Virus record (IMG/VR): IMGVR_UViG_3300044844_000854
Span: 1-64,000 of that record
Source: a virus
DNA length: 64,000 nt
Strand: one strand, 5' to 3'
The position numbers were made by a program, and so were the translations under genes. This document shows positions 1,690 to 63,160 of this stretch, piece after piece. Position 1 is the stretch's first letter. Each line of letters starts with the position of its first letter. The notes under the pieces are model-generated. The model did no database searches. It was given only the letters and a program-made list of their open reading frames with translations, and was not told the origin of the DNA.

Positions 1690-1769
1690 CTAGACCACTA
1701 TGGCTATATGCCTAAAAAAACGGAACATTAAAACCACACTTTAACTAAAAACACTTAACAAGATTACCT

Positions 1770-1797
1770 GCCTGATCTATATGGTTAGGCTTTTTTT
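1770..1797 (+). terminator. Rho-independent terminator
   Basis: GCCTGATC-TATAT-GGTTAGGC stem with G-U pairs, followed by T7. Confidence 0.65.
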
Positions 1798-1821
1798 ATC
1801 ACTATTTAGAATAGGATAGTT

Positions 1822-2166
1822 ATGCAATTCATCAACATAACCCCACATAGTATTGATCTACTTTTAGATAATAAAAAGATTAGTATCCCCCCAACAGGTG
1901 TAGTCGCACGATGCTCTGTTGACAGTGAACAATTACCTACTATTTCAGCTACATTTGATGGTATGGAATTTGAAATCCCAATGTCTCAAACAAGATTAGG
2001 TGAAATCGTAGGATTACCACCACAAATGCAAGATACCTATTATATCACTAGCATTGTTGTAGCACAAAAAGCATCTCAACTTGGTAGAGTAGATGTGATT
2101 GTTCCTGATGTAATTAGAGATAGTAAAGGCAACATTGTAGGATGTAAAGGTTTCTATCGTCCTTAA
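1822..2166 (+). CDS. Conserved uncharacterised phage protein (N-x-TPH ... GLP ... RD-x-x-G-x-I-x-GC family)
   Basis: NITPH, IPPTGVVAR, GLPPQ..DTYYITS and IRDSKGNIVGCKGF match a widespread phage family I recognise; AGGA RBS. Confidence 0.75.
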   Translation: MQFINITPHSIDLLLDNKKISIPPTGVVARCSVDSEQLPTISATFDGMEFEIPMSQTRLGEIVGLPPQMQDTYYITSIVVAQKASQLGRVDVIVPDVIRDSKGNIVGCKGFYRP

Positions 2167-2248
2167 TATCCCTAGCATTGTTTAGAACTATTGCTAAAAC
2201 ACTCTACCTTTAACTCAATCGTAGCATTTATAATTATATTATGAGTGA

Positions 2249-2277
2249 TTTACGACTAACATTAAGATTGCTATTCT
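2249..2277 (+). promoter_or_regulatory. Early-type promoter TTTACG-17-TG.TATTCT
   Basis: Same architecture as the promoters at 4282 and 6319. Confidence 0.6.
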
Positions 2278-2345
2278 TATTGTATCACTTGATTGATTTT
2301 TAAAAAATTGATCACAACAACAACCAAAAAACAAGGAAAATACAA

Positions 2346-3266
2346 GTGACACAGACACTTAAAGACCTTACCAAGATCGTTGCAGAATTAGCAAAAATTG
2401 CAGAAATTTATAGCGATGATCAAGACCGTATGCACAAAATCGTTTTAGCTCAGTTACCAATCTATGCACAAAGAGTATTGCTTTCTATGTGTGATGTTGA
2501 TGATAATGGTAGATATAATCTCAAACTTGATCTTAGAGCAGCAATCACTCAAATTGAAGATAAGGCTGAGGGATTTTACACTGATGTGCTTGATGGTGAA
2601 ACTCATAAATTGCTAGATGATATTTTTATGCAAATCGTAGATGCACTCATTGATAATAGCAATAGCGATCATCGTTTCACAAGCATTTCACTTATTGTAA
2701 ATAAAGCACAAAATGCACTAGATGCTCTCAAAAAATATTCTACTGAAGAATTTGATTGGCACTATTTTGCAATGGAAACTTGTGAAGATGATATTGAAGA
2801 AGCTAATTCTGAATTACCATCTATCCTAGAAGATGTTCAATCACAACTAGAAGATGCTCTTACACACACAGCTAATGATGCATTTGATCGCTTTAGATAT
2901 GATGTAAAACAACTCATTGCTGATACAGACAATATCATTGGTCAACTTGAAGGTGCATATAGCGATTATTGCGAAGCAATCCAAGCAAAAACACTTGAAG
3001 GCTATTTTGATGATGCTTGTCATGAGATTAGTGAATTGCTATTTGCATTTGTCTTGTTTCTTAGACCACTATGTGTCGTAGAATTTGAAGAACAAAAACA
3101 AAAGACTGCTCAAAACATGATTGCTAAACTAGATCGTGTTGAATTGTTAGAAAGACAAAATTCTGAATTACAACAACAATTAGATGTCGTAAATAAGGCA
3201 AACAAGGATTTAGAAGATTTGGTCAAAGGTTTTGCTGAAATCCTAGAGATCATGAAACAGAGTTAA
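2346..3266 (+). CDS. Acidic helical hypothetical protein (306 aa), probable paralog of 3453-4208
   Basis: GTG start with AAGGA RBS; D/E rich; C-terminal coiled coil. Confidence 0.75.
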   Translation: MTQTLKDLTKIVAELAKIAEIYSDDQDRMHKIVLAQLPIYAQRVLLSMCDVDDNGRYNLKLDLRAAITQIEDKAEGFYTDVLDGETHKLLDDIFMQIVDALIDNSNSDHRFTSISLIVNKAQNALDALKKYSTEEFDWHYFAMETCEDDIEEANSELPSILEDVQSQLEDALTHTANDAFDRFRYDVKQLIADTDNIIGQLEGAYSDYCEAIQAKTLEGYFDDACHEISELLFAFVLFLRPLCVVEFEEQKQKTAQNMIAKLDRVELLERQNSELQQQLDVVNKANKDLEDLVKGFAEILEIMKQS

Positions 3267-3452
3267 TATTTCAAAAAAACGGAATGTTCAAAAACAGTCA
3301 AATATAAACAATAAATTAAGAATGTGTTCAAAAACAGCAACATTTGAACAATAACAATCAAGGGCATCTAAGTATCATATATTTTAGAATACCCCACACA
3401 CTAGCATACTCATGATATGAGTATATTTTTCGTCCACAACAAAGGAAACAAA

Positions 3453-4208
3453 ATGGATGACACTTTAGATACATTGCAATTGATTAAAGACAATCTTGAG
3501 CAAAACAAAATTACAACTAGCACTGCTAAATCTCAATTACTAGATGCAATTCGTGATGGTATTGTGTTTGAGGCAATCTATGACTTAGAGAGATTGGATT
3601 GCACTACATCTTATCTTAGAGATAATGGTCAAGGCGATCAACATTTAACTAACTTGTTTCGTGATTTCTTAGATGAACATCATGAGTCATATTTTGGTAT
3701 TGCTAGAGCAAGATTTACTCAACTCTATAAAACAATCAAGATTGAACTCAAACACTATGCAGAACATGAATATGACTTTAACAATCAAGCAATAGAAGAA
3801 ATTGAATGCACAGAAGATGTTGAAACATCACTTGCAAATATCAAGCATGAATTACAAGAACTTCTACATATTTGTGATGATTTTAGCGATATTGATCAAA
3901 GAATGGAACAGGATATTGCAGTCATGTATAACAATATCAAACTTATCCAAGATCGTTTTTGTGCTAATCACAACACTAGACTAAAGCACCATAAAGAAGA
4001 TATTATTGCTATCTTTCATGATAAACAAGCTTCGTGCCTTGATTATTTAGATTTGGCTATGTTTATTGTTGATGCTATCTATGATAAAGAAAAAACAAGT
4101 GAAATTGTCGTTGAATTTGGATTTTCAGGTGCTGATCAAAAGATGGTTGAATTTATGACTAACATTAAACAAATGGTTGAAGATTTCAATAATAGTCGTA
4201 AGGCATAA
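3453..4208 (+). CDS. Acidic helical hypothetical protein
   Basis: ORF 3417-4208; AAAGGA RBS favours the ATG at 3453. Confidence 0.75.
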   Translation: MDDTLDTLQLIKDNLEQNKITTSTAKSQLLDAIRDGIVFEAIYDLERLDCTTSYLRDNGQGDQHLTNLFRDFLDEHHESYFGIARARFTQLYKTIKIELKHYAEHEYDFNNQAIEEIECTEDVETSLANIKHELQELLHICDDFSDIDQRMEQDIAVMYNNIKLIQDRFCANHNTRLKHHKEDIIAIFHDKQASCLDYLDLAMFIVDAIYDKEKTSEIVVEFGFSGADQKMVEFMTNIKQMVEDFNNSRKA

Positions 4209-4281
4209 TTTACTTAAAAAAACGGAATGTTAAAAAACCATCATATACACAATAGTAATCAATAGAATGATATTCTAGAAA

Positions 4282-5457: not shown

Positions 5458-5604
5458 ACATACTTTAAAAAAAACGGAATTGTAAAAAAGATACCCCACC
5501 TATAAGCATTACAATCTTTTAATAAAAGAGAACTAATGAAATCCCCCTTTAGCTTTAATGACATTAGAGCTAATACAACAACCACTCTCTCAAGGAAAAT
5601 ACAA

Positions 5605-5979
5605 ATGGCAGAATATACACCTGTCTTTCTTAGAAGAATGAAAACAGCTAAATCATCTAAAGAGCAATACCTTAGAATTTACGATGATATTAAGCTAGAA
5701 CTTGCTAAATCGTTTGTCGTAAAAGAAACAGGATTTGTAAGTCAATATCCACCAATGGAAAGCGATCACACAGAGTCAATCTCTTTTTCTCTTTCTCTCA
5801 ATGGTTTGGTGTTCTATCTATCTGTTGATTATGATGGCAGATTATCTGTATATCTTGCAGGTCAATCTACAAGAAATGTTGCTCAAGTCGTAGTACCTTA
5901 TGATGTTGCACTTATTTGTGTATGGTTTAGATCACAGATCAATTATCTCTCTCACTTTGCAGAAAAAACGGAAGGTTAG
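5605..5979 (+). CDS. Hypothetical protein
   Basis: ORF 5536-5979; AAGGA RBS favours the ATG at 5605. Confidence 0.65.
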   Translation: MAEYTPVFLRRMKTAKSSKEQYLRIYDDIKLELAKSFVVKETGFVSQYPPMESDHTESISFSLSLNGLVFYLSVDYDGRLSVYLAGQSTRNVAQVVVPYDVALICVWFRSQINYLSHFAEKTEG

Positions 5980-5982
5980 AAA

Positions 5983-6177
5983 ATGAAATTATATGCCATT
6001 TATAAGAGTAGAAGATGTAGAGAAACAGGTGAAACAAGACCCGCTCGACTAATCTCTAAGGGACACACACTTGAATATGTTAGAGAAATCTGCAATAGCC
6101 CAGAGTCAAGTAGTGATCACAATTACAATCCTAGAGCAAAATATGATTGGTTTTTATTCTATGCAAGTATGAATTAA
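5983..6177 (+). CDS. Small conserved early phage protein
   Basis: KGHTLEYVREICNSPESSS...WF resembles a common phage family (GLTLEEAQAHC.DPETSS..WF); GAAGG RBS lies inside a motif copy. Confidence 0.65.
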   Translation: MKLYAIYKSRRCRETGETRPARLISKGHTLEYVREICNSPESSSDHNYNPRAKYDWFLFYASMN

Positions 6178-7164: not shown

Positions 7165-7380
7165 AATACCATTGCTATTATCGTGTGATTAGTAGTTTGT
7201 ATATATTCAAGATTATGTTGATTTTTATATAAGACTAATGTAAAAGATTTTGACAAGCCAAAACAAACCTATGATATAGGTTAAAAAAACGGCACATTAA
7301 AAAACAATCATATTTTAGATATGACAAAATGTTAGCTAATAAACTAACAGACACAACCAAAAAAAACGGAGCATTAAAAA

Positions 7381-7662
7381 ATGCAATACTTAAAGCACTT
7401 ATCATATTTAGATATGAATACGAATTGGCTAACAGAGCAATTTATCATCATAGGCAAAAACTCATACTTGATGAAAAAAAACGGGCAGTTAAAAAGTGGA
7501 TTATTTAAAACAGAGAATATCAAGGTATCTAAACAAAAAGACAACACCTATGATCTATTTGTAACAGTAAGACACTCACAAGGGAATGATATTGTAGCTG
7601 AATATGGCTTACCTGATGATGAATTAAGAGTGATGGTAGAATTATACTCTAGACACCAATAG
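7381..7662 (+). CDS. Hypothetical protein (93 aa)
   Basis: CGGAG RBS within a motif copy at 7367. Confidence 0.65.
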   Translation: MQYLKHLSYLDMNTNWLTEQFIIIGKNSYLMKKNGQLKSGLFKTENIKVSKQKDNTYDLFVTVRHSQGNDIVAEYGLPDDELRVMVELYSRHQ

Positions 7663-8237
7663 AGAACAGCACCACAGCACCACATGAAAAAACGGAACAT
7701 CAAAAAACGGAATATTAAAACACTTTTTTAGATACCCCCCTATATACAATATAAGAATAACACACTAAAAAAACGGAACTTTACAAAACCCCCCTTAATA
7801 ATTAGATTACCCCTCATATATGTATATCTATAGTAATATTAGCATAGACACAATAAAGAAATTATTCTAATTTTACACTAAATCCACAACTTTAGATCAA
7901 ATTTCAAATATTCTCTACTAGAGTAAATCATAAAGCCAATCCAATAAATTCTAAGAAATGCCCTATTTATCGGGGTTTGCGACTGCTTTCGTCCCTTCCG
8001 TTTCTTTAAAAGTATGGTTTTCTAGGGGGTAAAATATAAGAGGTTGTATTCATTTTCAATCAGGTTTTACATGATTTTTTATTTGCCTTATAGAAAAGAT
8101 TTATTTATATGTGTTTTTGTCGTGGTTTTTTCGCCCTATCTTGTCTTTTAGAAAGTGATGATCAAAAGATAGTAAATCATGACCGTTTTTTTTCCCCTTT
8201 TTCCCCTTTACTCTTCTTTTATAGTAGGTAAAAAATC

Positions 8238-11082: not shown

Positions 11083-11106
11083 GGTGTATATATGCACCGT
11101 TTTTTT
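11083..11106 (+). terminator. Near-palindrome plus T tract (terminator-like), overlapping a minus-strand motif copy
   Basis: GGTGTATA/TATGCACC followed by GTTTTTTT. Confidence 0.4.
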
Positions 11107-12454
11107 GGTAGTGTTTAGGTATAAAATGAACAAGTTGACCATATGAAAAATGAGAAAGGCTGAACACGACTCGCAGTAAAATATAAACTTTTTAGTGAAC
11201 ATGATACTGAACATGAGCCCAAAACAAATGATAATAGAAAAAGATACCCCCCCCCATGAGAAAAAAAATTAAAAGAAAAGAACACAATCGTATGCCTGCA
11301 GGTACTCAAGGCACAAATGGTAAAAAATGGCTATGGTAAAAAACGGAAGGGAATAAAACCAAACTACTTCTAGCTATATAATAATATGTGATACATTATA
11401 ACAATGAATAGTCAATCAAGTTACAATGATGGTATAAACTAAAGGCACAACAAACATAATCAAGAAAACAATAAACATAATCAAGTGATGGGTAAAGAGA
11501 TAGCTAAAGAATGGTAATAAAATGGTCAACCAATAGCACATGATCAAGTAACATACTAAAAAACTGAATGGTAAAAATCCAAACAATAATTCTCTAGCTA
11601 TATAAGTAAAGTATAGTGATAAGTAATAGCTAAAGAGTAGACAATCAAGGCAGTATAATGGTTAAGCATAAAAGTAAATAGTCAATCCAAAGAATAGTCA
11701 ATCTATGGTATGGTTATGGTTATGGCAATGGCTCAAGTGTTATGGCTCAAGTGTGATATACTAAAGGTTGGTTATCGACCAAAAAAGATGAAGTAGTGTG
11801 AGTGGCAAGCACCTACTCTTTACACTAGAGTGCCTGTAAGAATACTAAGGTAAAAAAATGTGATGATAAAAAACTAAGGTAAAAAAAGTTATATGCATAA
11901 AATTGTGAAGAGAATATGCAGAAAGATTGGAAAAAGTGTAGAAAGAAAAAATGTGAATGTGATAAATGCTCAAATTTCTAGCAAATATGGATAAAAATGG
12001 ATAATAAAAAATGGTGGTGTAAAAATGTGGATAAACTACAGGCACAATGATTGAATGTTCTAGCTATATAAATTGCTAAAAATGGAATGTGAATAAAATG
12101 GATATGAAAAAAATGGGAAATAAATAAAGGTAAATAAAGAGAATGACATAAACAAACTAAGATAAATAAAGAATGGTATAAAAAGAACAAGGGCTCAAAT
12201 TGTCTTTAGCAATGGTAACTGTAAAAATGTATAGAAGAGAAAATATAGAAAGTGATAATGAAATGTTAAGTGATAAATGCCTATTTAGGTAAATAAAAGG
12301 TTCGATAAGGAAAATGAGAGTGGCAGAAAATCGCCCCCAGTGAGCTTTACACTAAAGGGTATAAAAAAAAGTTGAATAAAGTGGAAAAAATGATAAAGTA
12401 GGTATGTCATTCAATAACAATAGAGAAAAAATGGAATGACAGAAAGAGAAAAGA

Positions 12455-13278: not shown

Positions 13279-13771
13279 TTATGTGACTGTTCTAGGCTAC
13301 CCACAACCAAAAGAGAGAAGTGGTGTAGGAGCATATGGTAATTTATATAAGAAGAAAAAAACTCGTGATTATGAGCAAAGAGTAATGGAAGAATTTGCTA
13401 AATTACTTGGAGCATCTATCTATAAAGGTTTAATCTATGTAGATATTATTTGTATATTTAAGAGAACAAAAGAACTATCAAAACGGTATAAAAACGGAAC
13501 ATACAAATATGGAACTAAAAGAATAGCACATTTAATAAAACCTGATCATGACAATATAAGAAAGAGTGTCTTAGATGGATTTCAATGTTTTATGGATGGT
13601 GGTGATTGTAGAGTAATTGGTGGGCTCACAATGAAGTATTATGCAAACATAGTGAATGAAATTGAAGAAGAAGAGAGAGTGGTAATTAGAGTGGTAAGTG
13701 AATGTGATCTAGAACAATTACATGTCTATATGCTAGAGCCAAATAATCTAATAGAGTTACTAAACAAATAA
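13268..13771 (+). CDS. rusA: RusA-family Holliday junction resolvase
   Basis: GYPQPKER N-terminus, KPDHDNIRKSVLDG catalytic motif, D-x-x-V downstream. Confidence 0.85.
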   Translation: MRVDYVTVLGYPQPKERSGVGAYGNLYKKKKTRDYEQRVMEEFAKLLGASIYKGLIYVDIICIFKRTKELSKRYKNGTYKYGTKRIAHLIKPDHDNIRKSVLDGFQCFMDGGDCRVIGGLTMKYYANIVNEIEEEERVVIRVVSECDLEQLHVYMLEPNNLIELLNK

Positions 13772-15628: not shown

Positions 15629-15741
15629 TTACTATAATATACTAGATAACTATAGAAATTATATAGGAAATAGTATATAAATATGTATAGATTACTAAGA
15701 AAACATTGCATAATATGTATGAAAAAACGGAGATTAAAGAA

Positions 15742-16080
15742 ATGACTATCTACAACCCATCTAGGTTAGTATCACTAGAAGAAATAAGCTCTATGACAGG
15801 GATAGATGCAACAATCATTAAAAAACATCTAAGAAGTGGTAGATTGATAGACCAAACAGAAGAAAATGTAAGAGATTATGTTGTCATGTTAGAAATGTCT
15901 AAAGATCGTTATAGTTCTAAAGACAGATATAACCATAGAGATGTAAAACGACACCATAAGTGGAAAACAGAAGATGAAATTGCTCTTAGTAAATTAAAAG
16001 CAGAAGAATATATTGAATTTGTAGGTAAAAAAGATGAAGATAAAGAAACACAAACAAATGAACAAAAAAACGGAGAATAA
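15742..16080 (+). CDS. Putative helix-turn-helix DNA-binding protein
   Basis: VSLEEISSMTGIDATIIKKHLRSGRL is HTH-like; CGGAG RBS favours the ATG at 15742. Confidence 0.55.
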   Translation: MTIYNPSRLVSLEEISSMTGIDATIIKKHLRSGRLIDQTEENVRDYVVMLEMSKDRYSSKDRYNHRDVKRHHKWKTEDEIALSKLKAEEYIEFVGKKDEDKETQTNEQKNGE

Positions 16081-16083
16081 CAA

Positions 16084-16862: not shown

Positions 16863-17014
16863 GATGTTCTCTCTTTCGTTTTACTATTCCGTTTTTTTGA
16901 GTATTATTCTGTGTTTTCTAGTGATTGACTAAATTCACATAGATGACTAAAATGTATATGTCTTAAATGACAAAACACTAAAAACCAATCTATGCTACTT
17001 GTTAGGAGATTAAC

Positions 17015-41842: not shown

Positions 41843-41867
41843 CATAGAAAAAAACGGACATTAAAAA

Positions 41868-44921: not shown

Positions 44922-44960
44922 CAATAACAATAACAATGATAAAAAACGGAATAGTAAAAA

Positions 44961-47437: not shown

Positions 47438-47486
47438 TAAATATATGATGTATAGTGAAAAAACGGAAAATAACAAAGGATAAAAC

Positions 47487-49385: not shown

Positions 49386-50917
49386 TGAGAAAAATCTTAC
49401 AAGGTTGGCAATTCTCTAAGGTAAGAACTACTGAAATTGCAGATATTGTAGAAATAGGCAATCAAATCCCCCTACTAATCGAAGAAACTAATCTTCCTTT
49501 AGGTACAACTATTCATAGGGTAGTAGTAAGACAATCAATCATAAATGTAGGTGGTCAAATATCTTATGTACTTTCTAAAGCAATTGAAGATAGTCCACAA
49601 ATCACTACTGATTGTTTAATTGTTAAGGTTGGTATCCCTTTAGATACAGCTCAATTCACATTTACAGGTGATATTGCTATCCTATCTTCTGAAATTGAAT
49701 ACCCTAGAGCATATGATTTAAATAGATATAAGCTAGAATTTGAAGGATATGTAAATTCATACTCTACATATCGAGATGAATATATCACACAAATCATTTT
49801 ACCTAGCACAAGTGGTATTGTTAAATATATAACACTACTTTATAAGGTAAATTTGGTAGGTGTACAAAGTGATCCATTCTATATCTACTCTCAAGTAAAT
49901 TGCCTTAATAGTGGTGTTGCAAATAAACTCTACAATCCTTTAGAAAGTAAATTAGGTTTAAAGCTATTCAATCGCTTACCTGCATACCTTAAAAAAGAAG
50001 ATGAAAAAAACGGAAATGCAACAAAAAAACTACTTAATATATTAGGTAGAACACTTGATGATGTAGAAACTAAAGTAAATCAAATCAAAAATACATATGA
50101 TGTAGATAATGTAAATGCAGATAAAATACCATACATAGATAATCTTTTAGGTTGGGAAACAAATTTTGAACTAAATGAACAGATTAGAAGATTTGAAACA
50201 AAAACTGCTATAGATGTATATAAGACTAAATCAACAACTAGAAGTATTGAACTTATCCTACAAGAGATACTTGGTTGGAATGTAGAAATTCAAGAGGGCT
50301 ACCCTTATGTCTTTAGCTTAAATCAAAAACCTTATGAATTACTAGCTAAGCCTGATGATTGGAATGATACTACAGATGGTGATTGGGATCAATTGTTAGC
50401 AAACTCACCTTTATCTGTTACATATAATACAGATATGGGTATTGTTGATATAGGCTCTACATTCTCACCTATTGCAATCTTACCATCATTTTCAGATAAA
50501 AAAGATAACACAAGCAACAATTTTCAAAATCTAAATGGTGTACTTATTAAGCTATACCCACTACCTAATCGTAGGGTAAAATTAGGAAGAGATTTACTAG
50601 ATAAGCTAAATGTATTACTACCACAACTATTGGTACATTATGCAGACTATTTTATCTCTGTTCAAGATGTATTTGATGAAACTATTAGACTTGGTATTGC
50701 TGATGACTATGATGATTTCTTAGGTTATGTCAATGGTGAAACACTTGGGCTCAAATCTAAGAGTGGTACAAAAACACCATCACTTGTATTGTTTGAAACT
50801 TGGGGTGAAGATCGTGATTATGATAGCTTACTAAATGATGATTTTTATAGGCTATTCCATAATGCTATGGGTATTGCAGGTAGCAATGTGGACGGTGGTT
50901 ATACACCAAACGAATAA
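49382..50917 (+). CDS. Baseplate wedge / P2 gpI-like tail protein
   Basis: LFNRLPAYL..ED, IPYIDNLLGW, AIDVYKTKSTTRSIE. Confidence 0.75.
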   Translation: MMRKILQGWQFSKVRTTEIADIVEIGNQIPLLIEETNLPLGTTIHRVVVRQSIINVGGQISYVLSKAIEDSPQITTDCLIVKVGIPLDTAQFTFTGDIAILSSEIEYPRAYDLNRYKLEFEGYVNSYSTYRDEYITQIILPSTSGIVKYITLLYKVNLVGVQSDPFYIYSQVNCLNSGVANKLYNPLESKLGLKLFNRLPAYLKKEDEKNGNATKKLLNILGRTLDDVETKVNQIKNTYDVDNVNADKIPYIDNLLGWETNFELNEQIRRFETKTAIDVYKTKSTTRSIELILQEILGWNVEIQEGYPYVFSLNQKPYELLAKPDDWNDTTDGDWDQLLANSPLSVTYNTDMGIVDIGSTFSPIAILPSFSDKKDNTSNNFQNLNGVLIKLYPLPNRRVKLGRDLLDKLNVLLPQLLVHYADYFISVQDVFDETIRLGIADDYDDFLGYVNGETLGLKSKSGTKTPSLVLFETWGEDRDYDSLLNDDFYRLFHNAMGIAGSNVDGGYTPNE

Positions 50918-51029
50918 CATTAAAATAGAATGATGAAAAAAAACGGAACATAAAAAAAAGATTATGCTATACACTACACCTTAGATATTATATAAAGAGA
51001 TACAAAGACATACACTAAAGGAATACAAT

Positions 51030-51584
51030 ATGAACAAAATTGCCTTAACAATTGTGGGTAAATACCAAGACACCTTGATTGATAAAAACGGAAATGTAAA
51101 AAAACATGAGATCAAAAACAATCAAGTACAACTAACTGCTCTAAAGCTAATATCTTCACTATTTAAAAACCAAGCAAATACAATTGGTATTCAATACATT
51201 GCTTTAGGTAGTGGAGATGCTACTTGGGATTTACTAACAAATAACAAACCTAGCCCAATGCTTAATAGCAACACTACACTTACAACAGAGATATTTAGAA
51301 AAGCTATCCCTATTACAGATATTGTATTTGTAGACCCTACGGCTGCTTTTGGTCAAGGTGCAATTTCTCAAACTGCCACTACAAGATTAAGAATTACTAC
51401 TCAAATTGAAGCTAGTGAAGCTAATGATTCTCTTAGAGAATTTGCTCTTTTTGGTGGTACTGCAACAGGTATGCAAAATAGTGGATTTATGATCAATTGG
51501 GTAGCACACCCCTTGATTGAAAAGACAGAAGATGTTGTTCTTAATCGTATGATTGAACTAGACTTTGTTCTAGTAAATAACTAA
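51030..51584 (+). CDS. Tail collar / fibre attachment protein
   Basis: YIALGSGD..W, LTTEIFRK, EANDSLREFALFGG, I.KT. Confidence 0.7.
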   Translation: MNKIALTIVGKYQDTLIDKNGNVKKHEIKNNQVQLTALKLISSLFKNQANTIGIQYIALGSGDATWDLLTNNKPSPMLNSNTTLTTEIFRKAIPITDIVFVDPTAAFGQGAISQTATTRLRITTQIEASEANDSLREFALFGGTATGMQNSGFMINWVAHPLIEKTEDVVLNRMIELDFVLVNN

Positions 51585-51634
51585 ACTAAACACACACTCT
51601 TAGAAAAAAACGGAAATTACAAAAAGGAAATAAT

Positions 51635-57733: not shown

Positions 57734-57822
57734 TAAATAAGCTAAAATAAGAATATTGATTGAATTTCTTTTAGATAAGGTATAATATCTCTGTATCACA
57801 TTAAAAAACGGAGATAGAAAAA

Positions 57823-58197
57823 ATGGCAGCAATTCCTTACGATAGTCCATATAAGGCTACAACTAAAGAAATTACATGGGATACAACAAATCCATTAAAC
57901 TTAACAACAGATGCAAAATTAGATGGCACAAGAGCATTTAGATTAGCCGTATCATCTTTGCCTGCAGGAGCAACAATCTCTTTACAAGGTGCATTGATTG
58001 AAACACCATCTTTAGATGCACATTGGTCAACCATTTCTAGCTTGACTTCAAGTGGATTTATTACTGATTTTGATAATCACTATAAGATTATGCCACATAA
58101 GGTTAGATTAAAACAAACTGCAGGTGCTACTACATCAAATGCTACTAAAGTGCTTGTTGTATCTAAGCATATTCCACCTGAATTAACTAAGCCTTAA
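57823..58197 (+). CDS. Hypothetical, probably virion beta-sandwich protein
   Basis: CGGAG RBS; tail-distal position. Confidence 0.6.
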   Translation: MAAIPYDSPYKATTKEITWDTTNPLNLTTDAKLDGTRAFRLAVSSLPAGATISLQGALIETPSLDAHWSTISSLTSSGFITDFDNHYKIMPHKVRLKQTAGATTSNATKVLVVSKHIPPELTKP

Positions 58198-58227
58198 TAG
58201 ATAGCATAAAAAAACGGAGATTACAAA

Positions 58228-58824
58228 ATGGAAAAGATTTTAGAATTCTTAGCTAAACAATACTTAAAGACTAATAACATTGCACCTACTACAAGTGATT
58301 TGATTTCATTGTTAGAAATCTGTCAACAAGAAAGCACATACTCTCAAGCAGTGCAAGCAAAGATTTTGGATATTCAAAAACCTGTATCTGTTATTCAGCA
58401 AGTAGGTAGTAATGCGATTGCTAAATTTAAAACAATCATTGTAAATGGCAAGAAAGTACAAGTACCTGTTCAAGGTGGCACAACTACTACTGCTACTACT
58501 AAGGTTGTTGATAAGAGTAGCCCAAATGGTGCTATTGCATTGATTGATATTATTAAAGGTGCTACAGGTGATACACTAATCAATAGTGATGTATCTAAAT
58601 GGCTTGTGGATAGTCCAAAAACTATGGAACTTCCCTTTAGTGATTTTGTTCTTACTAGTGATATTGTTGTATTTACTCAAGGTAATACTACTTGTTTTGG
58701 TATTACTACTAAGCCTATTACAAGTGAATTACTAGAAGTATTTGTATGGATTTCTAAGCCACAAGTTTTATCCATTCCGTTTTCTTCTGTATCTAAAGTA
58801 TATCGTTTATTACAAGAACCATAA
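58228..58824 (+). CDS. Hypothetical protein
   Basis: CGGAG RBS. Confidence 0.65.
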   Translation: MEKILEFLAKQYLKTNNIAPTTSDLISLLEICQQESTYSQAVQAKILDIQKPVSVIQQVGSNAIAKFKTIIVNGKKVQVPVQGGTTTTATTKVVDKSSPNGAIALIDIIKGATGDTLINSDVSKWLVDSPKTMELPFSDFVLTSDIVVFTQGNTTCFGITTKPITSELLEVFVWISKPQVLSIPFSSVSKVYRLLQEP

Positions 58825-58848
58825 GCATAAAAAACGGAGAATAACAAA

Positions 58849-59217
58849 ATGACTATGACTACAATATTAGAACAATTACTACCTATTATGGGTACTGTTG
58901 TAAGTGCAATTGTTTCTTATGTACTCACTCTTCTAGCTAAGAGATACCAACTACAATTAAGCAATGAACAAGAAACTCAATTAAGACTTACTGTTCGTTC
59001 TGCTATTGCAGGTGCTGAAGAATGGGGTGCAAGAAAAATGAATGTTGAAAAACTTGATTATGTTAGTGGTAAGGAAAAGGCAGATTATGCTTTAGCTATC
59101 ATTAAGAGTTTATACCCAAAAGCAGAACAAGAAGATATGTTAAAGCTGATTGACTGTGAAATTGCTACTATGCAAGACTTGGGTGCAACTAAAAGAAAAA
59201 TCGACATTGAAATCTAA
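58849..59217 (+). CDS. Holin, LL-H family
   Basis: N-terminal TM, then VRSAIAGAEEW...SGKEKADYAL...LIDCEIATM. Confidence 0.75.
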   Translation: MTMTTILEQLLPIMGTVVSAIVSYVLTLLAKRYQLQLSNEQETQLRLTVRSAIAGAEEWGARKMNVEKLDYVSGKEKADYALAIIKSLYPKAEQEDMLKLIDCEIATMQDLGATKRKIDIEI

Positions 59218-59227
59218 GGTATAATAA

Positions 59228-59359
59228 ATGATAACAAGCATTGTCACTATCTTAGCTACTGCACTTACACCTGTTATTGTTAAGGCTATTGAAAAAGCAC
59301 TTGATTTAGATAAGCCTACTACCAAAAAACCTACTAAAAAGAAAAAAACGGAAGGTTAA
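59228..59359 (+). CDS. 43-aa hydrophobic/basic peptide (not in the ORF track)
   Basis: MITSIVTILATALTPVIVKAIEKALDLDKPTTKKPTKKKKTEG; AAGGT RBS; fills the gap between flanking genes. Confidence 0.6.
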   Translation: MITSIVTILATALTPVIVKAIEKALDLDKPTTKKPTKKKKTEG

Positions 59360-59361
59360 AA

Positions 59362-59706
59362 ATGGCAGGATTACATAACATAGAAATCATACAAGGATCA
59401 ACATTTACACTAGAGATACAATGGAAAGATGCAGATGATACACCTATCTCTTTAGATGGATTTCAAATTCATATGCAAATTAGAAAATCTTTTGAAGATA
59501 ACTCTACACCACTTGTTGATTTATCTCTAGGTAATGGTATAACTCTTACAGGTGAAATTGGTGGACTTAAAATCACAATTCCACATACTGTTACTAGAAA
59601 TATTACACAATCCACAGCAAAGTATGATATAGAAATTACTACACCTGATGAAGTAATCAATCTTCTTCGTGGCAATGTAAATATCATAGGAGAAATTACA
59701 AGATGA
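59362..59706 (+). CDS. Tail-fibre adaptor-like virion protein (BppU-N-like)
   Basis: IIQGSTF...W.D....PISLDG....MQIR...YDIEI....LLRG.V.I..EITR. Confidence 0.7.
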   Translation: MAGLHNIEIIQGSTFTLEIQWKDADDTPISLDGFQIHMQIRKSFEDNSTPLVDLSLGNGITLTGEIGGLKITIPHTVTRNITQSTAKYDIEITTPDEVINLLRGNVNIIGEITR

Positions 59707-60041: not shown

Positions 60042-60074
60042 AAGACAAACCCTTAAAAAAACGGAGCTTATAAA

Positions 60075-61436
60075 ATGGCACAAATTAGACCAGAGCAAAT
60101 TAAATTAACAGAGAATACACTCTTAGTTGGTGTACTTGAAAACGGTGCAGAAGTAGCTAAAGCATTACCATTAAATACAGACGGTAATGTATCTTTCTCT
60201 ATTGTAGATGGTGCTTTAAAATTATCTGTAGATGCAGGTGGTATTACTGCTACTGAAATTGCAGATGGTACAATCACATCAGAGAAATTCGCACAAGGTG
60301 CAATTACTACAGATGCTATTGATGATTATAGCATTTTACCTGTAAAGCTAACTGCTGATCCTGATGAAACATTTGTATTTCAAACATCAAATCAAGATTG
60401 GAATGATAAAGCAGTTCTTCAAGTTTATGGTATTCCTGTTTCTGATGAAGATGTTGTTAATAAAGCATATGTAGATAGTGTTGCAACAGGTCTTGATTTT
60501 AAAGAAAGTGTTATCCTTGCTTTAGATTATGATGTAGATGCATTAAATGGTCTTTTTGCAAATCCTGATCAATCCTTAATTACAAGTGCAGGTGCTGAAT
60601 ATCGTTTATTGCTTTTAGGTCAAAATAATCCTATTGAAAACGGTATCTATCAAGTACAAACATGGACTAACGGTGGTAATGATATTGCTATTATCAGAGC
60701 CCAAGATGCAGATTCATCTTCTGAATTAAATACAGGTGCATTTGTATATGTTGAAGCAGGAGAATATCAAGGTGCAGGCTATGTCTTACAAGCTAATCAA
60801 GACGGTACTTCACCACAAGTAGGTGTAGATGCAATTAACTTTGTTCAATTTAACGGTGCTACATCTCTTACTGCAGGTGAAGGTATCACTAAGCCAGCTG
60901 CAAATACAATTGCAGTAAAGATTGATGCAAATTCAAGTGCATTACAATTCTTAAATGATAACTCTTTAGCTTTAAGCATCAATTCAAATGCATTAAGTAT
61001 TGATCAAAATGGATTATCTATTATTTGTACTACAGGATCAGGTATTCAAGTAGGTGGTAATGGATTAGAACTTATCATTGATGAAAATTCTGTTATTGTA
61101 AATCAAGCTAATGAATTACAAGCAGCTATTATGCATTCATCTACACTTTCAGGTGCATTCCAATCAGGCACAGGTGTAACAGGTTATTCTGTATCTCGTG
61201 ATCCTATTAGCGATGGTAAATTCTTATTGCTTGTAAATGGTATTGCACAAAGACTTGGTGATGGCACTTCTGTTGGTTGTGATGCATTCTTCTGTGTAGG
61301 TGTAGGCAACCAATCACCACTCAATCTATCTCAAGTTCTTGCAGGTCATGCTCTTTATTGGAATACAAGTGTTGCAGGTTTTGCTCTTGAAGGTACTGAT
61401 TATATTGACTTAATCTATCAAACAAATGACTACTAA
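60075..61436 (+). CDS. Fibre-like virion structural protein
   Basis: IADGTIT repeats, DVVNKAYVD..ATGLDFKESV, RLLL.GQ....ENGIY, RAQDAD, GAFVYVEAG. Confidence 0.75.
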   Translation: MAQIRPEQIKLTENTLLVGVLENGAEVAKALPLNTDGNVSFSIVDGALKLSVDAGGITATEIADGTITSEKFAQGAITTDAIDDYSILPVKLTADPDETFVFQTSNQDWNDKAVLQVYGIPVSDEDVVNKAYVDSVATGLDFKESVILALDYDVDALNGLFANPDQSLITSAGAEYRLLLLGQNNPIENGIYQVQTWTNGGNDIAIIRAQDADSSSELNTGAFVYVEAGEYQGAGYVLQANQDGTSPQVGVDAINFVQFNGATSLTAGEGITKPAANTIAVKIDANSSALQFLNDNSLALSINSNALSIDQNGLSIICTTGSGIQVGGNGLELIIDENSVIVNQANELQAAIMHSSTLSGAFQSGTGVTGYSVSRDPISDGKFLLLVNGIAQRLGDGTSVGCDAFFCVGVGNQSPLNLSQVLAGHALYWNTSVAGFALEGTDYIDLIYQTNDY

Positions 61437-61542
61437 TATTTAAGATAGATAGATTTAATAGCATAAAAACACAATATCATTTATAATCCCTTAGAAATAA
61501 TGCTATATATAAGACATTCTAAAAACAAACTAAGGAGATTAT

Positions 61543-62052
61543 ATGGCTATCGTCCCTGCAAAACAGATTGCACCATTTACAATGAAAACGGCATCATTTA
61601 CTACTAATCTATTGGATTTAAATAATTACTCACAGAGATCACATACACAAGTTCTTACACTTACTAATGTTCCTAGAGCATTTATTAGAACAATTAGATT
61701 AAGTAGAACACCTGCATCATTTAATACAGGAACTTATGGTGATTATACAGGTCAAAGTGGTTATAATATTGCAGTAAAACTATATGATTTCGTTACCATT
61801 TCTACTAATTACTCAGATATTTACTACACTAAAGATAGCTCTACATTAAGTTCAAATACAGGGTATGACGCATCTACATCAGGTATTGTATTAGATTTTA
61901 ATATGGATACATGGTATTCTAATCAAGCTATTGGAACAAATAATATCTACTTACCTATTGTCATTCAAGATAATACTGCTATTAGTGGTGGTCATGGCAC
62001 AAGTGTTAAGTATGATGTTGTTGTTTATTATGATAGTGTTAATGCTGTTTAA
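61543..62052 (+). CDS. Hypothetical virion protein
   Basis: AGGAG RBS; S/T/Y-rich beta-type composition. Confidence 0.65.
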   Translation: MAIVPAKQIAPFTMKTASFTTNLLDLNNYSQRSHTQVLTLTNVPRAFIRTIRLSRTPASFNTGTYGDYTGQSGYNIAVKLYDFVTISTNYSDIYYTKDSSTLSSNTGYDASTSGIVLDFNMDTWYSNQAIGTNNIYLPIVIQDNTAISGGHGTSVKYDVVVYYDSVNAV

Positions 62053-62067
62053 ACTAAGGAGATTATT

Positions 62068-62328
62068 ATGTTTGGCATTTTTTATAAGCCCGAAAAAATC
62101 AATAATGTGGAAACACTTATAGGCTACCCTGCTTGTATGATTTCTACAGAAAAAAAAGGAAATGAAAATAACTTGGGAACAAACTATTGTAAAGTTCTCA
62201 CAGGTATTGCAACTGATGATATTAAACCTATCTCTAGGGTAATTACTAATCCTACAGATAAATGTAGTCATGCTTTCCTTTGGTTACCATTAACAATTAC
62301 ACCACAAGATTTAGGCATTCAAATCTAA
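62068..62328 (+). CDS. Hypothetical protein
   Basis: AGGAG RBS. Confidence 0.6.
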   Translation: MFGIFYKPEKINNVETLIGYPACMISTEKKGNENNLGTNYCKVLTGIATDDIKPISRVITNPTDKCSHAFLWLPLTITPQDLGIQI

Positions 62329-62339
62329 AGGATTAAACA

Positions 62340-62735
62340 ATGAAACAGAAAATGACACCATTTACTACTCATAGCAAACAAGGATTTACATCTAGGGATT
62401 TACCATATATTACAGGTAATAAAATCCTTGTAAGTGAATACTTTGTCAAACGACTTGGTGGTAAAGGATTTGTATATACAGGTGGCGAAACACTTGATTT
62501 CTCTCAAGGATTAAAAGAACCTACCACTGATACACCTAGCTATCTTGATTTGGATATGGTGCTAAAAACACTATTTGATGAGGTAGAACAACTTAAATTA
62601 CAAAATGCTTTACTTGCTGAATGTTTAGCTATTCGTGGGATTGAAATCGTAGCAAATAAAGCAATCTATCACCCTATTGGGAAAACAGAAAATACATTAC
62701 CTGCATTCTCTAGGTATGTTAAATCTGAAAAATAA
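62340..62735 (+). CDS. Hypothetical protein with a short coiled coil
   Basis: AAGGA RBS. Confidence 0.6.
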   Translation: MKQKMTPFTTHSKQGFTSRDLPYITGNKILVSEYFVKRLGGKGFVYTGGETLDFSQGLKEPTTDTPSYLDLDMVLKTLFDEVEQLKLQNALLAECLAIRGIEIVANKAIYHPIGKTENTLPAFSRYVKSEK

Positions 62736-62749
62736 TTAAGCTATATACA

Positions 62750-62778
62750 TTGACAAATACAGACAATATTACTACATT
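62750..62778 (+). promoter_or_regulatory. Sigma70-like promoter for the folE-containing unit
   Basis: TTGACA-17-TACATT. Confidence 0.55.
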
Positions 62779-62815
62779 GATCTAAAAGCTAAAGACACTC
62801 TCAGGACATGATAAG

Positions 62816-63109
62816 ATGTTTGAAACAATATACACAGTACAGATTAAGACATTATTATTTGAAATTAGTATTGTATGTTCACAATTACTAGATAATGATG
62901 AGCCTATTGCATTTGATTTATCCACAGAATTAAACCAATGGTGGATTGATGATAAAGATTATAAAACAACACCAAATGCAATCACTTTAGGTGTATGGCT
63001 TAAAACTATGGAATTACTTAAACAAGATAAATTATATTCAAGTAGAAATCTTACTTGTAAATCTGTGTTATTTGAGAGCCCATCTAAGATTGTTAGATTT
63101 ACACCATAA
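62816..63109 (+). CDS. Possible degenerate QueD/T-fold-like protein
   Basis: Weak resemblance to the C-terminal half of QueD; no Zn-binding His. Confidence 0.35.
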   Translation: MFETIYTVQIKTLLFEISIVCSQLLDNDEPIAFDLSTELNQWWIDDKDYKTTPNAITLGVWLKTMELLKQDKLYSSRNLTCKSVLFESPSKIVRFTP

Positions 63110-63160
63110 AAAACGGAATATTAAAAAACCAAACTACAAAAACACCATAGGAGATATACT

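What the first reader, a model, noticed from the sequence alone, without database searches (positions are those of the whole stretch)
1714..63128. Genome-wide A-tract/CGGA/A-tract motif (about 50 copies) in gaps, RBSs and ORFs: candidate undescribed phage DNA-site system
Seen: A(5-8)CGG(A), usually followed about 10-11 bp after the C by a second A tract (e.g. AAAAAAACGGAATGTTAAAAAA). C positions on +: 1721, 3280, 4223, 5475, 5969, 7290, 7367, 7482, 7693, 7708, 7774, 11344, 13495, 15728, 16071, 17313, 20622, 23047, 24249, 28210, 28706, 29880, 31093, 31425, 33069, 36394, 37459, 40847, 41855, 44947, 45409, 45628, 47464, 49082, 50011, 50944, 51089, 51611, 57809, 58215, 58835, 59349, 60062, 63114. 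Minus-strand copies lie near 16889, 41652 and 44281 (complete, with the second A tract) and 8183 and 11097. GCGGA/TCGGA variants occur at 21909, 25731, 27436, 28844 and 45604. CG is otherwise scarce here, so chance looks unlikely. Many copies double as the Shine-Dalgarno sequence (CGGAG...ATG), others sit just after stop codons, and more than a dozen lie inside ORFs, forcing KTE or KNG peptides and rare ACG/AAC-GG codons. The copy in front of the only minus-strand gene is on the minus strand. Established analogues are mycobacteriophage L5/Bxb1 stoperators and cluster K start-associated sequences. Inference: a protein-binding site used genome-wide (transcriptional roadblock or activator, genome organisation, packaging or self-marking). 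Intragenic and antisense copies argue against a pure RBS or promoter role.
Basis: partly seen in the sequence, partly recalled or inferred. Interest (0 to 1): 0.88.

Follow-up and report, generated by a model that had tools for sequence, protein, structure and literature searches.

The report
Oriented gene-junction motif in a freshwater phage
A 21-base signal (A-run, CGG, A-run) is written about 90 times, almost always in the direction of the genes, at the boundaries between genes of an uncultivated freshwater phage; it is real, strongly conserved and not a promoter, but which molecule reads it is still unknown.

Summary
AAAAACGG occurs 50 times in the window against 0.96 expected, and 90 times in the 104.6-kb genome (83 +, 7 -). 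The consensus is A6-7 CGG A R NN T W A5-6. Overlapping windows of this genome were noted for the same motif earlier in this scan.

About a third of the copies are fused to a ribosome-binding site: ATG sits 13-14 nt after the C, and the core is usually CGGAG. The other copies lie just after stop codons, upstream of a separate Shine-Dalgarno sequence, or inside ORFs. Intragenic copies number 25, against 4.3 in codon-preserving shuffles.

In a relative with 81% nucleotide identity, all nine junction copies are kept. The motif core is 98% identical, against 80% for other intergenic DNA. The giant gene carries its own non-orthologous copies in each lineage. More distant relatives and bacterial genomes lack the motif.

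I found no RNA polymerase or sigma factor. There is no fixed -10 element. Separate sigma-70-like promoters exist, and RNA contigs run across one copy, so a promoter role is unlikely.

Best reading: a lineage-specific, orientation-dependent cistron-junction element read by a sequence-specific factor. An mRNA-level role like start-associated sequences is slightly favoured (about 0.35). A stoperator-like DNA roadblock is nearly as likely (about 0.30). This is a new variant of a known kind, and its mechanism is unproven.

The parts
1397..1418 (+). weak copy inside ORF 253-1689 (no second A-run)
1714..1735 (+). copy 32 nt after stop; hairpin terminator 1770-1790 lies between it and start 1822
3273..3294 (+). 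copy 14 nt after stop; terminator 3406-3424 before next start
4216..4237 (+). copy 15 nt after stop, next start +152
5468..5489 (+). copy 18 nt after stop
5962..5983 (+). RBS-fused copy, ATG at +14; upstream stop codon lies inside the motif
7283..7304 (+). copy in mid-spacer
7360..7381 (+). RBS-fused copy (CGGAG, ATG +14)
7475..7496 (+). copy inside ORF 7381-7662
7686..7722 (+). two overlapping tandem copies (C at 7693 and 7708, 15-nt period) in a 576-nt non-coding stretch
7767..7788 (+). third copy in the same non-coding stretch
8171..8192 (-). partial minus-strand match (no second A-run); probably incidental, lost in the sister strain
11085..11106 (-). partial minus-strand match (12.6 bits)
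11337..11358 (+). copy in a non-coding region
13488..13509 (+). copy inside RusA-like ORF 13268-13771
15721..15742 (+). RBS-fused copy at the 3' edge of a 114-nt spacer
16064..16085 (+). RBS-fused copy; upstream stop TAA lies inside the motif
16877..16898 (-). full minus-strand copy 29 nt before the ATG of minus gene 16473-16862
17306..17327 (+). copy inside ORF 17015-17491
20615..20636 (+). copy inside giant ORF 19661-28141
21902..21923 (+). GCGG variant inside the giant ORF (18.5 bits)
23040..23061 (+). copy inside the giant ORF
24242..24263 (+). copy inside the giant ORF
28203..28224 (+). RBS-fused copy; conserved in L040
28699..28720 (+). copy 13 nt after stop, followed by TTGACT-17-TATAAA; the whole spacer is conserved in L040
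28837..28858 (+). TCGG variant fused to the RBS of ORF 28857; conserved as TCGG in L040; RNA contigs start at 28812 and 28837
29873..29894 (+). copy upstream of the separate SD of the capsid gene; core kept in L040 while the flanks diverge; bridged by RNA contigs
31086..31107 (+). copy inside ORF 30939-31361; not conserved in L040
31418..31439 (+). RBS-fused copy; conserved in L040
33062..33083 (+). RBS-fused copy; conserved in L040
33946..33968 (+). sheath-gene RBS: TGG here, canonical CGG in L040 (C/T turnover)
36387..36408 (+). copy upstream of a separate SD; conserved in L040
37452..37473 (+). RBS-fused copy at the 3' edge of a 225-nt spacer; conserved in L040
40840..40861 (+). copy 12 nt after stop
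41640..41661 (-). full antisense copy inside ORF 41537-41842 (22.7 bits)
41848..41869 (+). RBS-fused copy
44269..44290 (-). full antisense copy inside ORF 43506-44921 (24.0 bits)
44940..44961 (+). RBS-fused copy
45402..45423 (+). copy in a spacer or at the start of ORF 45528-47045
45621..45642 (+). copy inside ORF 45555-47045
47457..47478 (+). copy abutting a separate SD (AGGA), start +23
49075..49096 (+). copy inside baseplate ORF 47487-49385
50004..50025 (+). copy inside ORF 49382-50917
50937..50958 (+). copy 27 nt after stop
51082..51103 (+). copy inside ORF 51030-51584
51604..51625 (+). copy abutting a separate SD, start +24
57802..57823 (+). RBS-fused copy; TATAAT-like -10 lies upstream at about 57781
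58208..58229 (+). RBS-fused copy
58828..58849 (+). RBS-fused copy
59342..59363 (+). RBS-fused copy
60055..60076 (+). RBS-fused copy
63107..63128 (+). copy 5 nt after stop, separate SD, start +47

Best explanation
The motif is a lineage-specific, orientation-dependent cis-element placed at cistron boundaries of the phage's long, co-directional operons. A sequence-specific trans-acting factor reads it.

Mechanism I commit to: the motif works on the transcript. It is an extended translation-initiation and junction site. Two unstructured A-runs flank a CGG(A/G) core, and a phage-encoded (less likely host) RNA-binding factor, possibly an endoribonuclease, recognises that core.

Where a gene follows directly, the site is merged with the ribosome-binding site: the core becomes CGGAG, which supplies the Shine-Dalgarno, and ATG sits 13-14 nt after the C. 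The factor therefore sits on the initiation region and sets translation of that cistron. Copies just after stop codons, upstream of a separate SD, or inside long ORFs are the same binding site used away from a start codon. There it could hold the factor on the mRNA, segment the transcript, or stabilise it.

Shown here: the over-representation, the orientation, the junction placement, the RBS fusion, purifying selection on the core, lineage specificity, and the lack of promoter features.

For: Real and selected: 50 copies against 0.96 expected in the window. The PWM gives 86/6 hits against 0.25/0. Against the 81%-identical relative L040, all 9 junction copies are at orthologous places and the core is 97/99 identical. 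Other intergenic DNA is 80% identical and codon position 2 is 89%.

Tied to gene starts: 28 of 83 + copies have ATG at +13/+14 (chance about 5%). Of these, 23 are called gene starts. G at +4, making GGAG, is seen in 14/28 of these against 4/55 of the others (p=2e-5).

In nine spacers of 82-373 nt, with room to sit anywhere, the copy is still fused to the start codon. Positions within long spacers are bimodal, at either edge.

The spacing between CGG and the second A-run (+8 to +12), and single-base insertions between the first A-run and CGG, are tolerated. This fits reading of a single strand better than a rigid duplex site.

The motif is transcribed. RNA contigs of two studies begin at 28812 and 28837 and run across the copy at 28844. 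Contigs of three runs bridge the copy at 29880.

Not a promoter: there is no -10 at a fixed distance on either side. I found no sigma factor or RNA polymerase. Separate TTGACA-17-TATAAT-like and TTAGAT/TATA-type promoters exist.

Only this lineage is motif-rich in IMG/VR. Relatives with 48-64% identical terminase or 50-60% identical capsid lack the motif. A scan of bacterial genomes gave only single hits.
Against: Two thirds of the copies are not at a start codon.

Five or six full antisense copies (41654, 44283, 93592, 104118; 58779 is weaker) are far above chance, and an mRNA-level role does not explain them unless antisense RNA is made.

Intragenic copies are enriched about 6-fold. They are maintained independently in the giant gene of two lineages at non-orthologous places. 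That looks like a density-type requirement rather than translation control.

No RNA-binding protein or nuclease candidate was identified. Searches for CsrA, RegA and RegB families found nothing, but the controls for the last two did not ring.

The conserved C does not pair with the anti-SD (inference from the standard 16S 3' end). The sheath gene works with TGG, so the C is not needed for ribosome binding itself.

The RNA evidence consists of assembled contigs, which cannot show true ends.
Confidence: 0.35

Rival explanations
1. Stoperator-like DNA site. A phage DNA-binding protein binds the asymmetric duplex site at about 90 places and blocks or modulates elongating host RNA polymerase in an orientation-dependent way. 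This would give global silencing or temporal control. Overlap with the RBS would be economy or history. Candidate binders are the MerR-type winged-HTH protein at genome 81141-81839 and the ParB_N+HTH protein at 83892-84854.
For: The site is asymmetric, has many copies, and is co-oriented with genes. It lies in short intergenic spaces and overlaps start and stop codons in all modules. This is how L5-type stoperators are described (PMC9283540).

This reading accounts for after-stop copies, which sit in the slot where a terminator would be, ahead of the next promoter. It also accounts for intragenic copies and for antisense copies above chance.

A-runs flanking a CG core suit shape readout plus base readout on duplex DNA (inference).

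The phage has only one clear HTH regulator. Its AF2 model (pLDDT 86.5) has a MerR/RacA/GlnR-like wHTH. A ParB-type HTH protein is also present.
Against: No integrase, no ParA and no recognisable immunity repressor were found. The phage looks virulent and is transcribed in lakes.

This reading does not explain why the copy is fused to the start codon in nine long spacers with free room, or why +4 becomes G there.

The spacing of the second A-run varies by up to 4 bp.

MerR-type and ParB-type proteins usually bind palindromes, and this site is not one. The MerR-like family (about 490 representatives) extends beyond the motif-bearing lineage.
Confidence: 0.3
2. Polar DNA-metabolism motif. The site would be read during replication, recombination, modification or packaging rather than expression. 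Examples: a Chi-like signal for host RecBCD/AddAB; a primase start on the lagging-strand template; a nicking site as in T5; or a loading or target site of the DpdA/ParB-like 7-deazaguanine system. It would sit in junctions because that is the cheapest place.
For: Nearly all genes are on one strand, so the 86:6 bias could follow the genome axis rather than the genes. Only one copy (16891) discriminates in favour of genes, and one (93592) against.

Density is about 1 per 1.2 kb. Intragenic copies turn over but their number is kept in two lineages.

The genome encodes DpdA/TGT-like, QueC/D/E, glycosyltransferases, a methyltransferase, a ParB-like protein, RecA, a Cas4-like nuclease, a primase and DnaB.

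CGG is otherwise avoided: 106 observed against 181 in synonymous shuffles.
Against: The motif is enriched 8-fold in intergenic DNA. ATG lies exactly at +13/14, and the motif is fused to the RBS even where space is free. None of these models predicts that.

Spacing is not regular, and intragenic copies do not fill gaps (CV 0.83; p 0.06-0.14).

Known Chi, primase and nick sites are 3-8 nt long, not 21 (own knowledge).
Confidence: 0.13
3. Phage-specific promoter. The site would be a compact, self-contained promoter for host RNA polymerase redirected by an unrecognised phage factor, or for an unrecognised phage polymerase. Transcription would start in or just after the motif.
For: The motif is contiguous, about 21 nt long, and lies ahead of most genes of all modules. 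It precedes the solitary minus-strand gene, which needs its own promoter. Internal and antisense copies are common for phage promoters.
Against: No polymerase or sigma factor was found. The giant ORFs have no Pfam match.

With ATG at +13/14 and a functional GGAG, the start would have to lie upstream of a motif that has no conserved upstream part.

RNA contigs begin upstream of the copy at 28844 and run across it. The sheath transcript contig begins at 33850, behind a TATA-type element with no motif.

Other promoter families are present.
Confidence: 0.08
4. Loading site for an elongation factor. The sequence would be read in the non-template strand or the nascent RNA by a factor that rides on RNA polymerase, in the manner of ops/RfaH or nut. 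This would keep transcription processive and coupled to translation along 50-kb operons.
For: The motif is strictly on the sense strand, lies at junctions, and recurs inside very long genes. The structural module has no + strand intrinsic terminators, while the early regions have several, some placed after a copy.
Against: Known systems need one or a few sites per operon, not one per gene (own knowledge). No NusG/RfaH-like or N/Q-like protein was looked for or found. Antisense copies are not explained.
Confidence: 0.06
5. Nothing but an optimal ribosome-binding region. The motif would have been homogenised by concerted evolution, with no dedicated reader.
For: The motif has an A-rich unstructured context, a GGAG core and optimal spacing in 28 copies. 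Genes without the motif use AAGGA(G/A) in similar A-rich leaders.
Against: The C, a CpG in a CpG-depleted genome, is the best conserved base yet weakens pairing with the anti-SD. 55 of 83 + copies have no start codon at the right distance. Intragenic and antisense copies are enriched.
Confidence: 0.05

Closest known systems
Start-associated sequences (SAS) of Cluster K mycobacteriophages (5'-GGGATAGGAGCCC; PMC3203893)
   Same: Both are short asymmetric repeats present in one orientation, with a rare reversed copy. Both lie a few bases upstream of ATG starts and contain the SD core plus conserved positions that cannot pair with 16S rRNA. The upstream stop codon is sometimes inside the repeat. 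Both are specific to one phage lineage and absent from bacterial genomes.
   Different: The sequence is unrelated. SAS number about 10-19 per genome and are restricted to the non-structural arm. Here about 90 copies lie in all modules. Two thirds of the copies are not at a start: they lie after stops, upstream of a separate SD, inside ORFs, or antisense. There is no ESAS-like inverted repeat.
Stoperators of Cluster A mycobacteriophages (L5, Bxb1; 13-mer bound by a monomeric two-domain repressor; PMC9283540)
   Same: Both are asymmetric sites repeated more than 20 times across the genome, in short intergenic spaces. In both, orientation correlates with the direction of transcription. Both are lineage-specific.
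   Different: Stoperators belong to temperate phages with an immunity repressor. Here I found no integrase and no recognisable repressor, and binding is untested. The site is 21 nt with A-runs, is often fused to the RBS at a fixed distance from ATG, and is enriched inside ORFs.
T4 RegB endoribonuclease targets (GGAG in Shine-Dalgarno regions with an A-rich 3' context; own knowledge)
   Same: Both have a GGA(G) core in an A-rich single-stranded context, lie at ribosome-binding sites and in intergenic RNA, and have many targets per genome.
   Different: Only 19 of about 90 copies are GGAG. The conserved C and the upstream A-run have no RegB counterpart. RegB acts on early mRNAs only, whereas this motif marks all gene classes. 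No RegB homologue was detected, but the control did not ring.
Intergenic RNase III processing sites of T7 (own knowledge)
   Same: Both are cis signals between cistrons of long polycistronic phage transcripts.
   Different: The T7 sites are hairpins and number about ten. This motif is unstructured, and no processing has been shown.

Membership tests
Stoperator system (Cluster A mycobacteriophages) | Asymmetric short site repeated more than 20 times across the genome | tested here: met
   90 AAAAACGG copies; non-palindromic PWM
Stoperator system (Cluster A mycobacteriophages) | Orientation follows the direction of transcription | tested here: met
   86 + against 6 - PWM hits. The minus-strand gene 16473-16862 has a minus-strand copy. 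One intergenic exception lies at 93592.
Stoperator system (Cluster A mycobacteriophages) | Bound by a phage immunity repressor (monomer with an HTH plus a second DNA-binding domain) | not testable with these tools
   Only candidates exist: a MerR-type wHTH protein (81141-81839) and a ParB-like protein. No DNA-binding prediction or assay is available.
Stoperator system (Cluster A mycobacteriophages) | Temperate phage (integrase or parABS) | tested here: not met
   No Phage_integrase and no AAA_31 ParA. There is only a ParB_N/HTH_ParB protein.
Stoperator system (Cluster A mycobacteriophages) | Blocks transcription elongation in one orientation | not testable with these tools
   Needs reporter assays or RNA-seq with and without the binder.
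Start-associated sequences (Cluster K) | Repeat lies a few bases upstream of the start codon, usually ATG | tested here: inconclusive
   True for 28 of 83 + copies (ATG at +13/14). The other 55 are elsewhere.
Start-associated sequences (Cluster K) | Contains the SD core plus conserved non-pairing positions | tested here: met
   CGGAG in 14 of 28 RBS-fused copies. The C and the A-runs are conserved but do not pair with the anti-SD.
Start-associated sequences (Cluster K) | Restricted to non-structural genes; consensus GGGATAGGAGCCC | tested here: not met
   Copies are present in structural, modification and replication modules, and the sequence is unrelated.
Phage-specific promoter (T7-like or T4-late-like) | Cognate phage RNA polymerase or sigma/adaptor encoded | tested here: not met
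   No Sigma70_r2. No polymerase family found among about 80 proteins scanned with Pfam/PHROGs. Divergent factors cannot be excluded.
Phage-specific promoter (T7-like or T4-late-like) | Transcripts start at a fixed place in or after the motif | tested here: inconclusive
   RNA contigs start upstream of the copy at 28844 and run across it, and they bridge the copy at 29880. Contigs cannot show true 5' ends.
RegB-type cleavage sites | GGAG core and a RegB homologue | tested here: inconclusive
   CGGAG in 19 copies only. PF10715 was not found, but nothing rang in the controls.
Chi-like or other polar DNA motif | Strand-biased and over-represented without regard to gene boundaries | tested here: not met
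   The motif is strand-biased and over-represented, but enriched 8-fold in intergenic DNA and positioned relative to start and stop codons.

The most novel reading that the evidence does not exclude
The phage carries its own expression code. A dedicated phage factor would recognise A-run/CGG/A-run on phage transcripts, or on the sense strand in the transcription bubble, at almost every cistron junction and inside very long genes. It would channel ribosomes and/or polymerase to phage messages. That would be a genome-wide, sequence-addressed take-over of gene expression with no described counterpart in phages. The conserved CpG could in addition be the target of the phage's expanded 7-deazaguanine modification system, which would link DNA marking to expression.
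Probability: 0.12. Interest if true: 0.85.

Novelty: new variant of a known kind. Interest (0 to 1): 0.6.

Why it matters
Genome-wide oriented motifs are known from very few phage groups. Only one kind, the stoperators, has a proven mechanism; start-associated sequences have stayed unexplained since 2011.

This case is unusually dense and clean. There are about 90 copies, the core is 98% conserved between lineages that differ at 20% of intergenic bases, and copies are independently renewed inside a fast-evolving giant gene. The phage is abundant and transcribed in many lakes.

The copies fall into classes that make different predictions: RBS-fused, after-stop, intragenic and antisense. That makes this a good system for finding out how a phage addresses all its cistrons with one short word.

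The motif is also a ready lineage marker for recognising related contigs in freshwater metagenomes.

Tried and rejected
1. Conservation against the sister strain (G001/G002, 96-98% identical). 63 of 66 CGG cores are kept, but divergence is too low to be informative.

2. Analogous motifs in distant relatives (L002-L009, L041-L076). None was found. The frequent 8-mers there are coding repeats.

3. A sigma-70 -10 at a fixed distance upstream or downstream. There is no enrichment.

4. The motif as a -35, UP element or activator site of the TTAGAT/TATA promoters. Distances of 19-83 nt show no phasing.

5. Regular spacing or gap-filling by intragenic copies. Not supported.

6. A consistent order of motif and terminator. 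About ten + strand terminators lie in only two regions, sometimes after and sometimes before a copy.

7. Hidden small ORFs behind after-stop copies. There are none, except a 19-codon ORF at 88591.

8. Rfam families in the genome: none. tRNAs: none.

9. Literature search for the word AAAAACGG: only unrelated primers.

10. RNA contigs. No RNA contig covers 28706-28811 in four runs, and the capsid-operon contigs stop at about 31020-31057, just before the copy at 31093. Parts without cover and contig ends prove nothing.

11. First fold of the MerR-like protein with 5 sequences: pLDDT 55, unusable.

As a result, conservation of intragenic copies in the helicase could only be judged from peptides. 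KNGM/L and EKTEFKI are kept in the 76% lineage; KKRNRK is not.

13. CsrA, RegA, RegB, integrase and ParA families in the genome: none found.

Full report
**What the window is.** The window is the first 64 kb of a 104,574-bp IMG/VR virus record, estimated 100% complete. The record encodes large terminase, portal, tail sheath, baseplate and tail lysozyme, so it is a myovirus. It also encodes PolA, DnaB, primase, RecA, ThyX, class II RNR, ClpP and a 7-deazaguanine gene set. GC is 32% and CpG o/e is 0.32. About 120 of 139 called ORFs are on the + strand. The phage occurs in at least 14 DNA runs from about ten freshwater studies, and parts of it occur in six metatranscriptomes. No cultured phage is close; the best terminase match is Bacillus phage BCD7 at 40%.

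AAAAACGG occurs 50 times in the window against 0.96 expected (largest 4), and 83 + / 7 - times in the genome. Aligned copies show conservation only from -7 to +14 relative to the C, as A6-7 CGG A R N N T W A5-6, with nothing conserved further out. A PWM scan gives 86 + and 6 - hits at >=14 bits, against 0.25 and 0 in Markov shuffles. The antisense copies are therefore non-random too.

**Where the copies lie.** 54 of 101 AAAACGG words lie in the 12% of the genome that is intergenic. Among spacers of at least 15 nt between + genes, 47 of 76 carry a copy. The 50 window copies fall into four placements:
- 15 are fused to a ribosome-binding site.
- 5 lie 23-47 nt before a start, with a separate SD.
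- 13 lie after stops or in spacers.
- 12 lie inside ORFs, and 5 are on the minus strand.

Genome-wide, 28 of 83 + copies have ATG at +13/+14 (chance about 5%). In those, +4 is G, which makes GGAG, in 14 of 28, against 4 of 55 elsewhere (p=2e-5). In long spacers the copy sits at one edge or the other. It lies 12-40 nt after the stop in 13 cases, or is fused to the start in 9 cases although 80-370 nt were free. The spacing of the second A-run (+8 to +12) and the ATG distance (13 or 14) vary between copies and between lineages.

**Intragenic copies.** Codon-preserving shuffles give 4.3 AAAAACGG (maximum 12 of 500) against 25 observed. For AAAAACGGA they give 1.3 against 18. CGG as such is avoided: 106 observed against 181. 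The copies occur in all three frames and at about 0.2-0.4 per kb whatever the gene length. They do not fill gaps.

**Comparative evidence.** A sister strain (96-98% identical) keeps 63 of 66 cores, but that is too close to be informative.

A metagenome contig (L040; capsid 89% aa; same GC and CpG depletion) aligns at 81% nt over 9.7 kb. All nine junction copies are at orthologous places. The core (-6..+4) is 97/99 identical. Other intergenic DNA is 80% identical, and codon positions 1, 2 and 3 are 85%, 89% and 72%.

The sheath RBS is TGG in this genome and canonical CGG in L040, so the C turns over without loss of the RBS. The intragenic copy at 31093 is not conserved.

The giant gene is only 30% identical in protein between the two lineages. 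It carries 3-6 copies in each, at non-orthologous places, and each set is significant under synonymous shuffles.

In the helicase, two of three motif-encoded peptides are kept in a 76%-identical homologue. The DNA of that lineage could not be fetched.

More distant relatives (terminase 48-64%, capsid 50-60%) lack the motif and have no analogous one. A pattern scan of IMG/VR finds only this lineage motif-rich.

**Not a promoter.**
- No sigma factor or RNA polymerase was found among about 80 proteins scanned, and the giant ORFs have no Pfam match.
- There is no -10-like element at a fixed distance on either side.
- With ATG at +13/14 and a used GGAG, a start site would have to lie upstream of a motif that has no conserved upstream part.
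- The genome has other promoter-like families. TTGACA-17-TATAAT-like promoters lie at 28728-28756 and before RecA and gene 93157. A TTAGAT...TATAnT / TGnTATACT family lies in long spacers, at variable distance (19-83 nt) from the motif.
- RNA contigs from two studies start at 28812 and 28837 and run across the copy at 28844. Contigs of three runs bridge the copy at 29880. A sheath contig starts at 33850, behind a TATA-type element without a motif. These are contigs, so they give only weak evidence.

**What it most likely is.** Three things are safe to say. The motif is a selected, lineage-specific, orientation-dependent element of cistron junctions. It is read by something other than the ribosome's anti-SD, because the best conserved base, the C of a CpG in a CpG-poor genome, does not pair with the anti-SD. 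It is also dispensable for an RBS, as the sheath gene shows.

The level at which it is read is open.

For the transcript: the motif is fused to start codons even where space is free, +4 switches to G there, the spacing is flexible, and the motif is transcribed.

For duplex DNA: the full antisense copies are unexplained on RNA, the after-stop copies lie ahead of the next promoter in the slot a terminator would occupy, and intragenic copies are maintained like a density requirement. This distribution matches stoperators, as described in PMC9283540. The RBS-fused class matches Cluster K start-associated sequences, whose reader is likewise unknown (PMC3203893).

I rank the readings as follows:
- mRNA-level junction and initiation element: 0.35
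- stoperator-like DNA roadblock: 0.30
- polar DNA-metabolism motif: 0.13
- promoter: 0.08
- ops/nut-like loading site: 0.06
- plain RBS: 0.05

**Candidate readers, all unproven.** The only clear HTH regulator is a 232-aa protein at genome 81141-81839. It has a basic helical hairpin plus a MerR-type winged HTH. The AF2 model has pLDDT 86.5, and the nearest folds are MerR regulators, RacA and GlnR/TnrA. Close homologues (68-100%) occur in the motif-bearing lineages, but the family has about 490 representatives beyond them. A ParB_N+HTH_ParB protein (83892-84854) and a SpoVS/Alba-like protein (88273-88560) are further candidates. No integrase or ParA was found, so the phage looks virulent.

**Verdict.** This is a real and striking feature. 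It is a new variant of the small class of genome-wide oriented phage motifs, and its mechanism is unresolved. The 'DNA-site system' interpretation is only one of two nearly equal readings.

Noticed in passing
window 17851, 28789, 37436, 57771; genome 93518, 100664: A second repeated intergenic family, TTAGAT followed after 0-8 nt by TATAnT or TGnTATACT. It looks like the phage's own promoter class, possibly late. An RNA contig starts at 28812, about 7 nt after the TATAAG of the 28789 copy.
   Followed up: partly
window 28728-28756; genome about 82150-82185 and about 93100-93135: Canonical TTGACA/TTGACT-17-TATAAT-like promoters. Together with AAGGA(G/A) Shine-Dalgarno sequences, they suggest a host with E. 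coli-type sigma-70 and SD usage, so not Bacteroidota.
   Followed up: no
window 8174-8187 and 8233-8246: The first 14 bases around the start of gene 8238 (AAATCATGACCGTT) are duplicated 59 nt upstream. There they open a 15-codon F/P/L-rich mini-ORF. This could be a leader peptide or a duplication scar.
   Followed up: no
window 7662-8238: A 576-nt non-coding stretch holds three + copies of the motif (two overlapping at a 15-nt period), C6 runs, and a GC-richer segment at 7940-8130 that may be structured. There is no Rfam match.
   Followed up: partly
window 12455-12892, 63161-64000; genome 64186-69415, 83892-85562, 88718-89422: An expanded 7-deazaguanine set is present: QueD/PTPS, HAD phosphatase, GT1 glycosyltransferase, methyltransferase, QueC, a TGT/DpdA-like protein and a radical-SAM QueE-like protein. 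Elsewhere lie a ParB_N+HTH_ParB protein next to a GT2 glycosyltransferase and a Cas4-like exonuclease. ParB-like DpdB helps DpdA in the bacterial Dpd system (own knowledge).
   Followed up: partly
window 19661-28141 and 51635-57733: ORFs of 2826 and 2032 aa have no Pfam match. The first is only 30% identical to its counterpart in a relative whose capsid is 89% identical, so it evolves very fast.
   Followed up: partly
genome 88591-88660: An after-stop copy of the motif is followed by ATG at +13 and a 19-codon ORF (MAKTQMPTKDKGTTKPKKC). It is either a micro-gene or the remnant of a lost gene. Lost genes could explain how after-stop copies arise.
   Followed up: no
genome 1-60 and 104500-104574: Both ends share ATATAATAAATAATCCATAATCTAAA followed by tandem CTAAA(C/A)TTGAT units. 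The record is probably a circular or terminally redundant assembly. The repeats may be a packaging or replication site.
   Followed up: no
window 1770-1790, 3406-3424, 9523-9538; genome 74319-74348, 76434-76453, 77017-77035: Intrinsic terminators on the + strand are confined to 0-10 kb and 73-77 kb. The 50-kb structural module has none. Several lie directly in front of an SD, as attenuators would.
   Followed up: partly
genome 88273-88560: A SpoVS-family (Alba-like fold) protein of 95 aa, with a Pfam E-value of 7e-27. Its own RBS is a copy of the motif.
   Followed up: no
L002 9937-9990 and 13392-13440: A distant relative has TTTTAGAAAACTATRGAG directly before two start codons. This is a possible small motif family of its own.
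   Followed up: no
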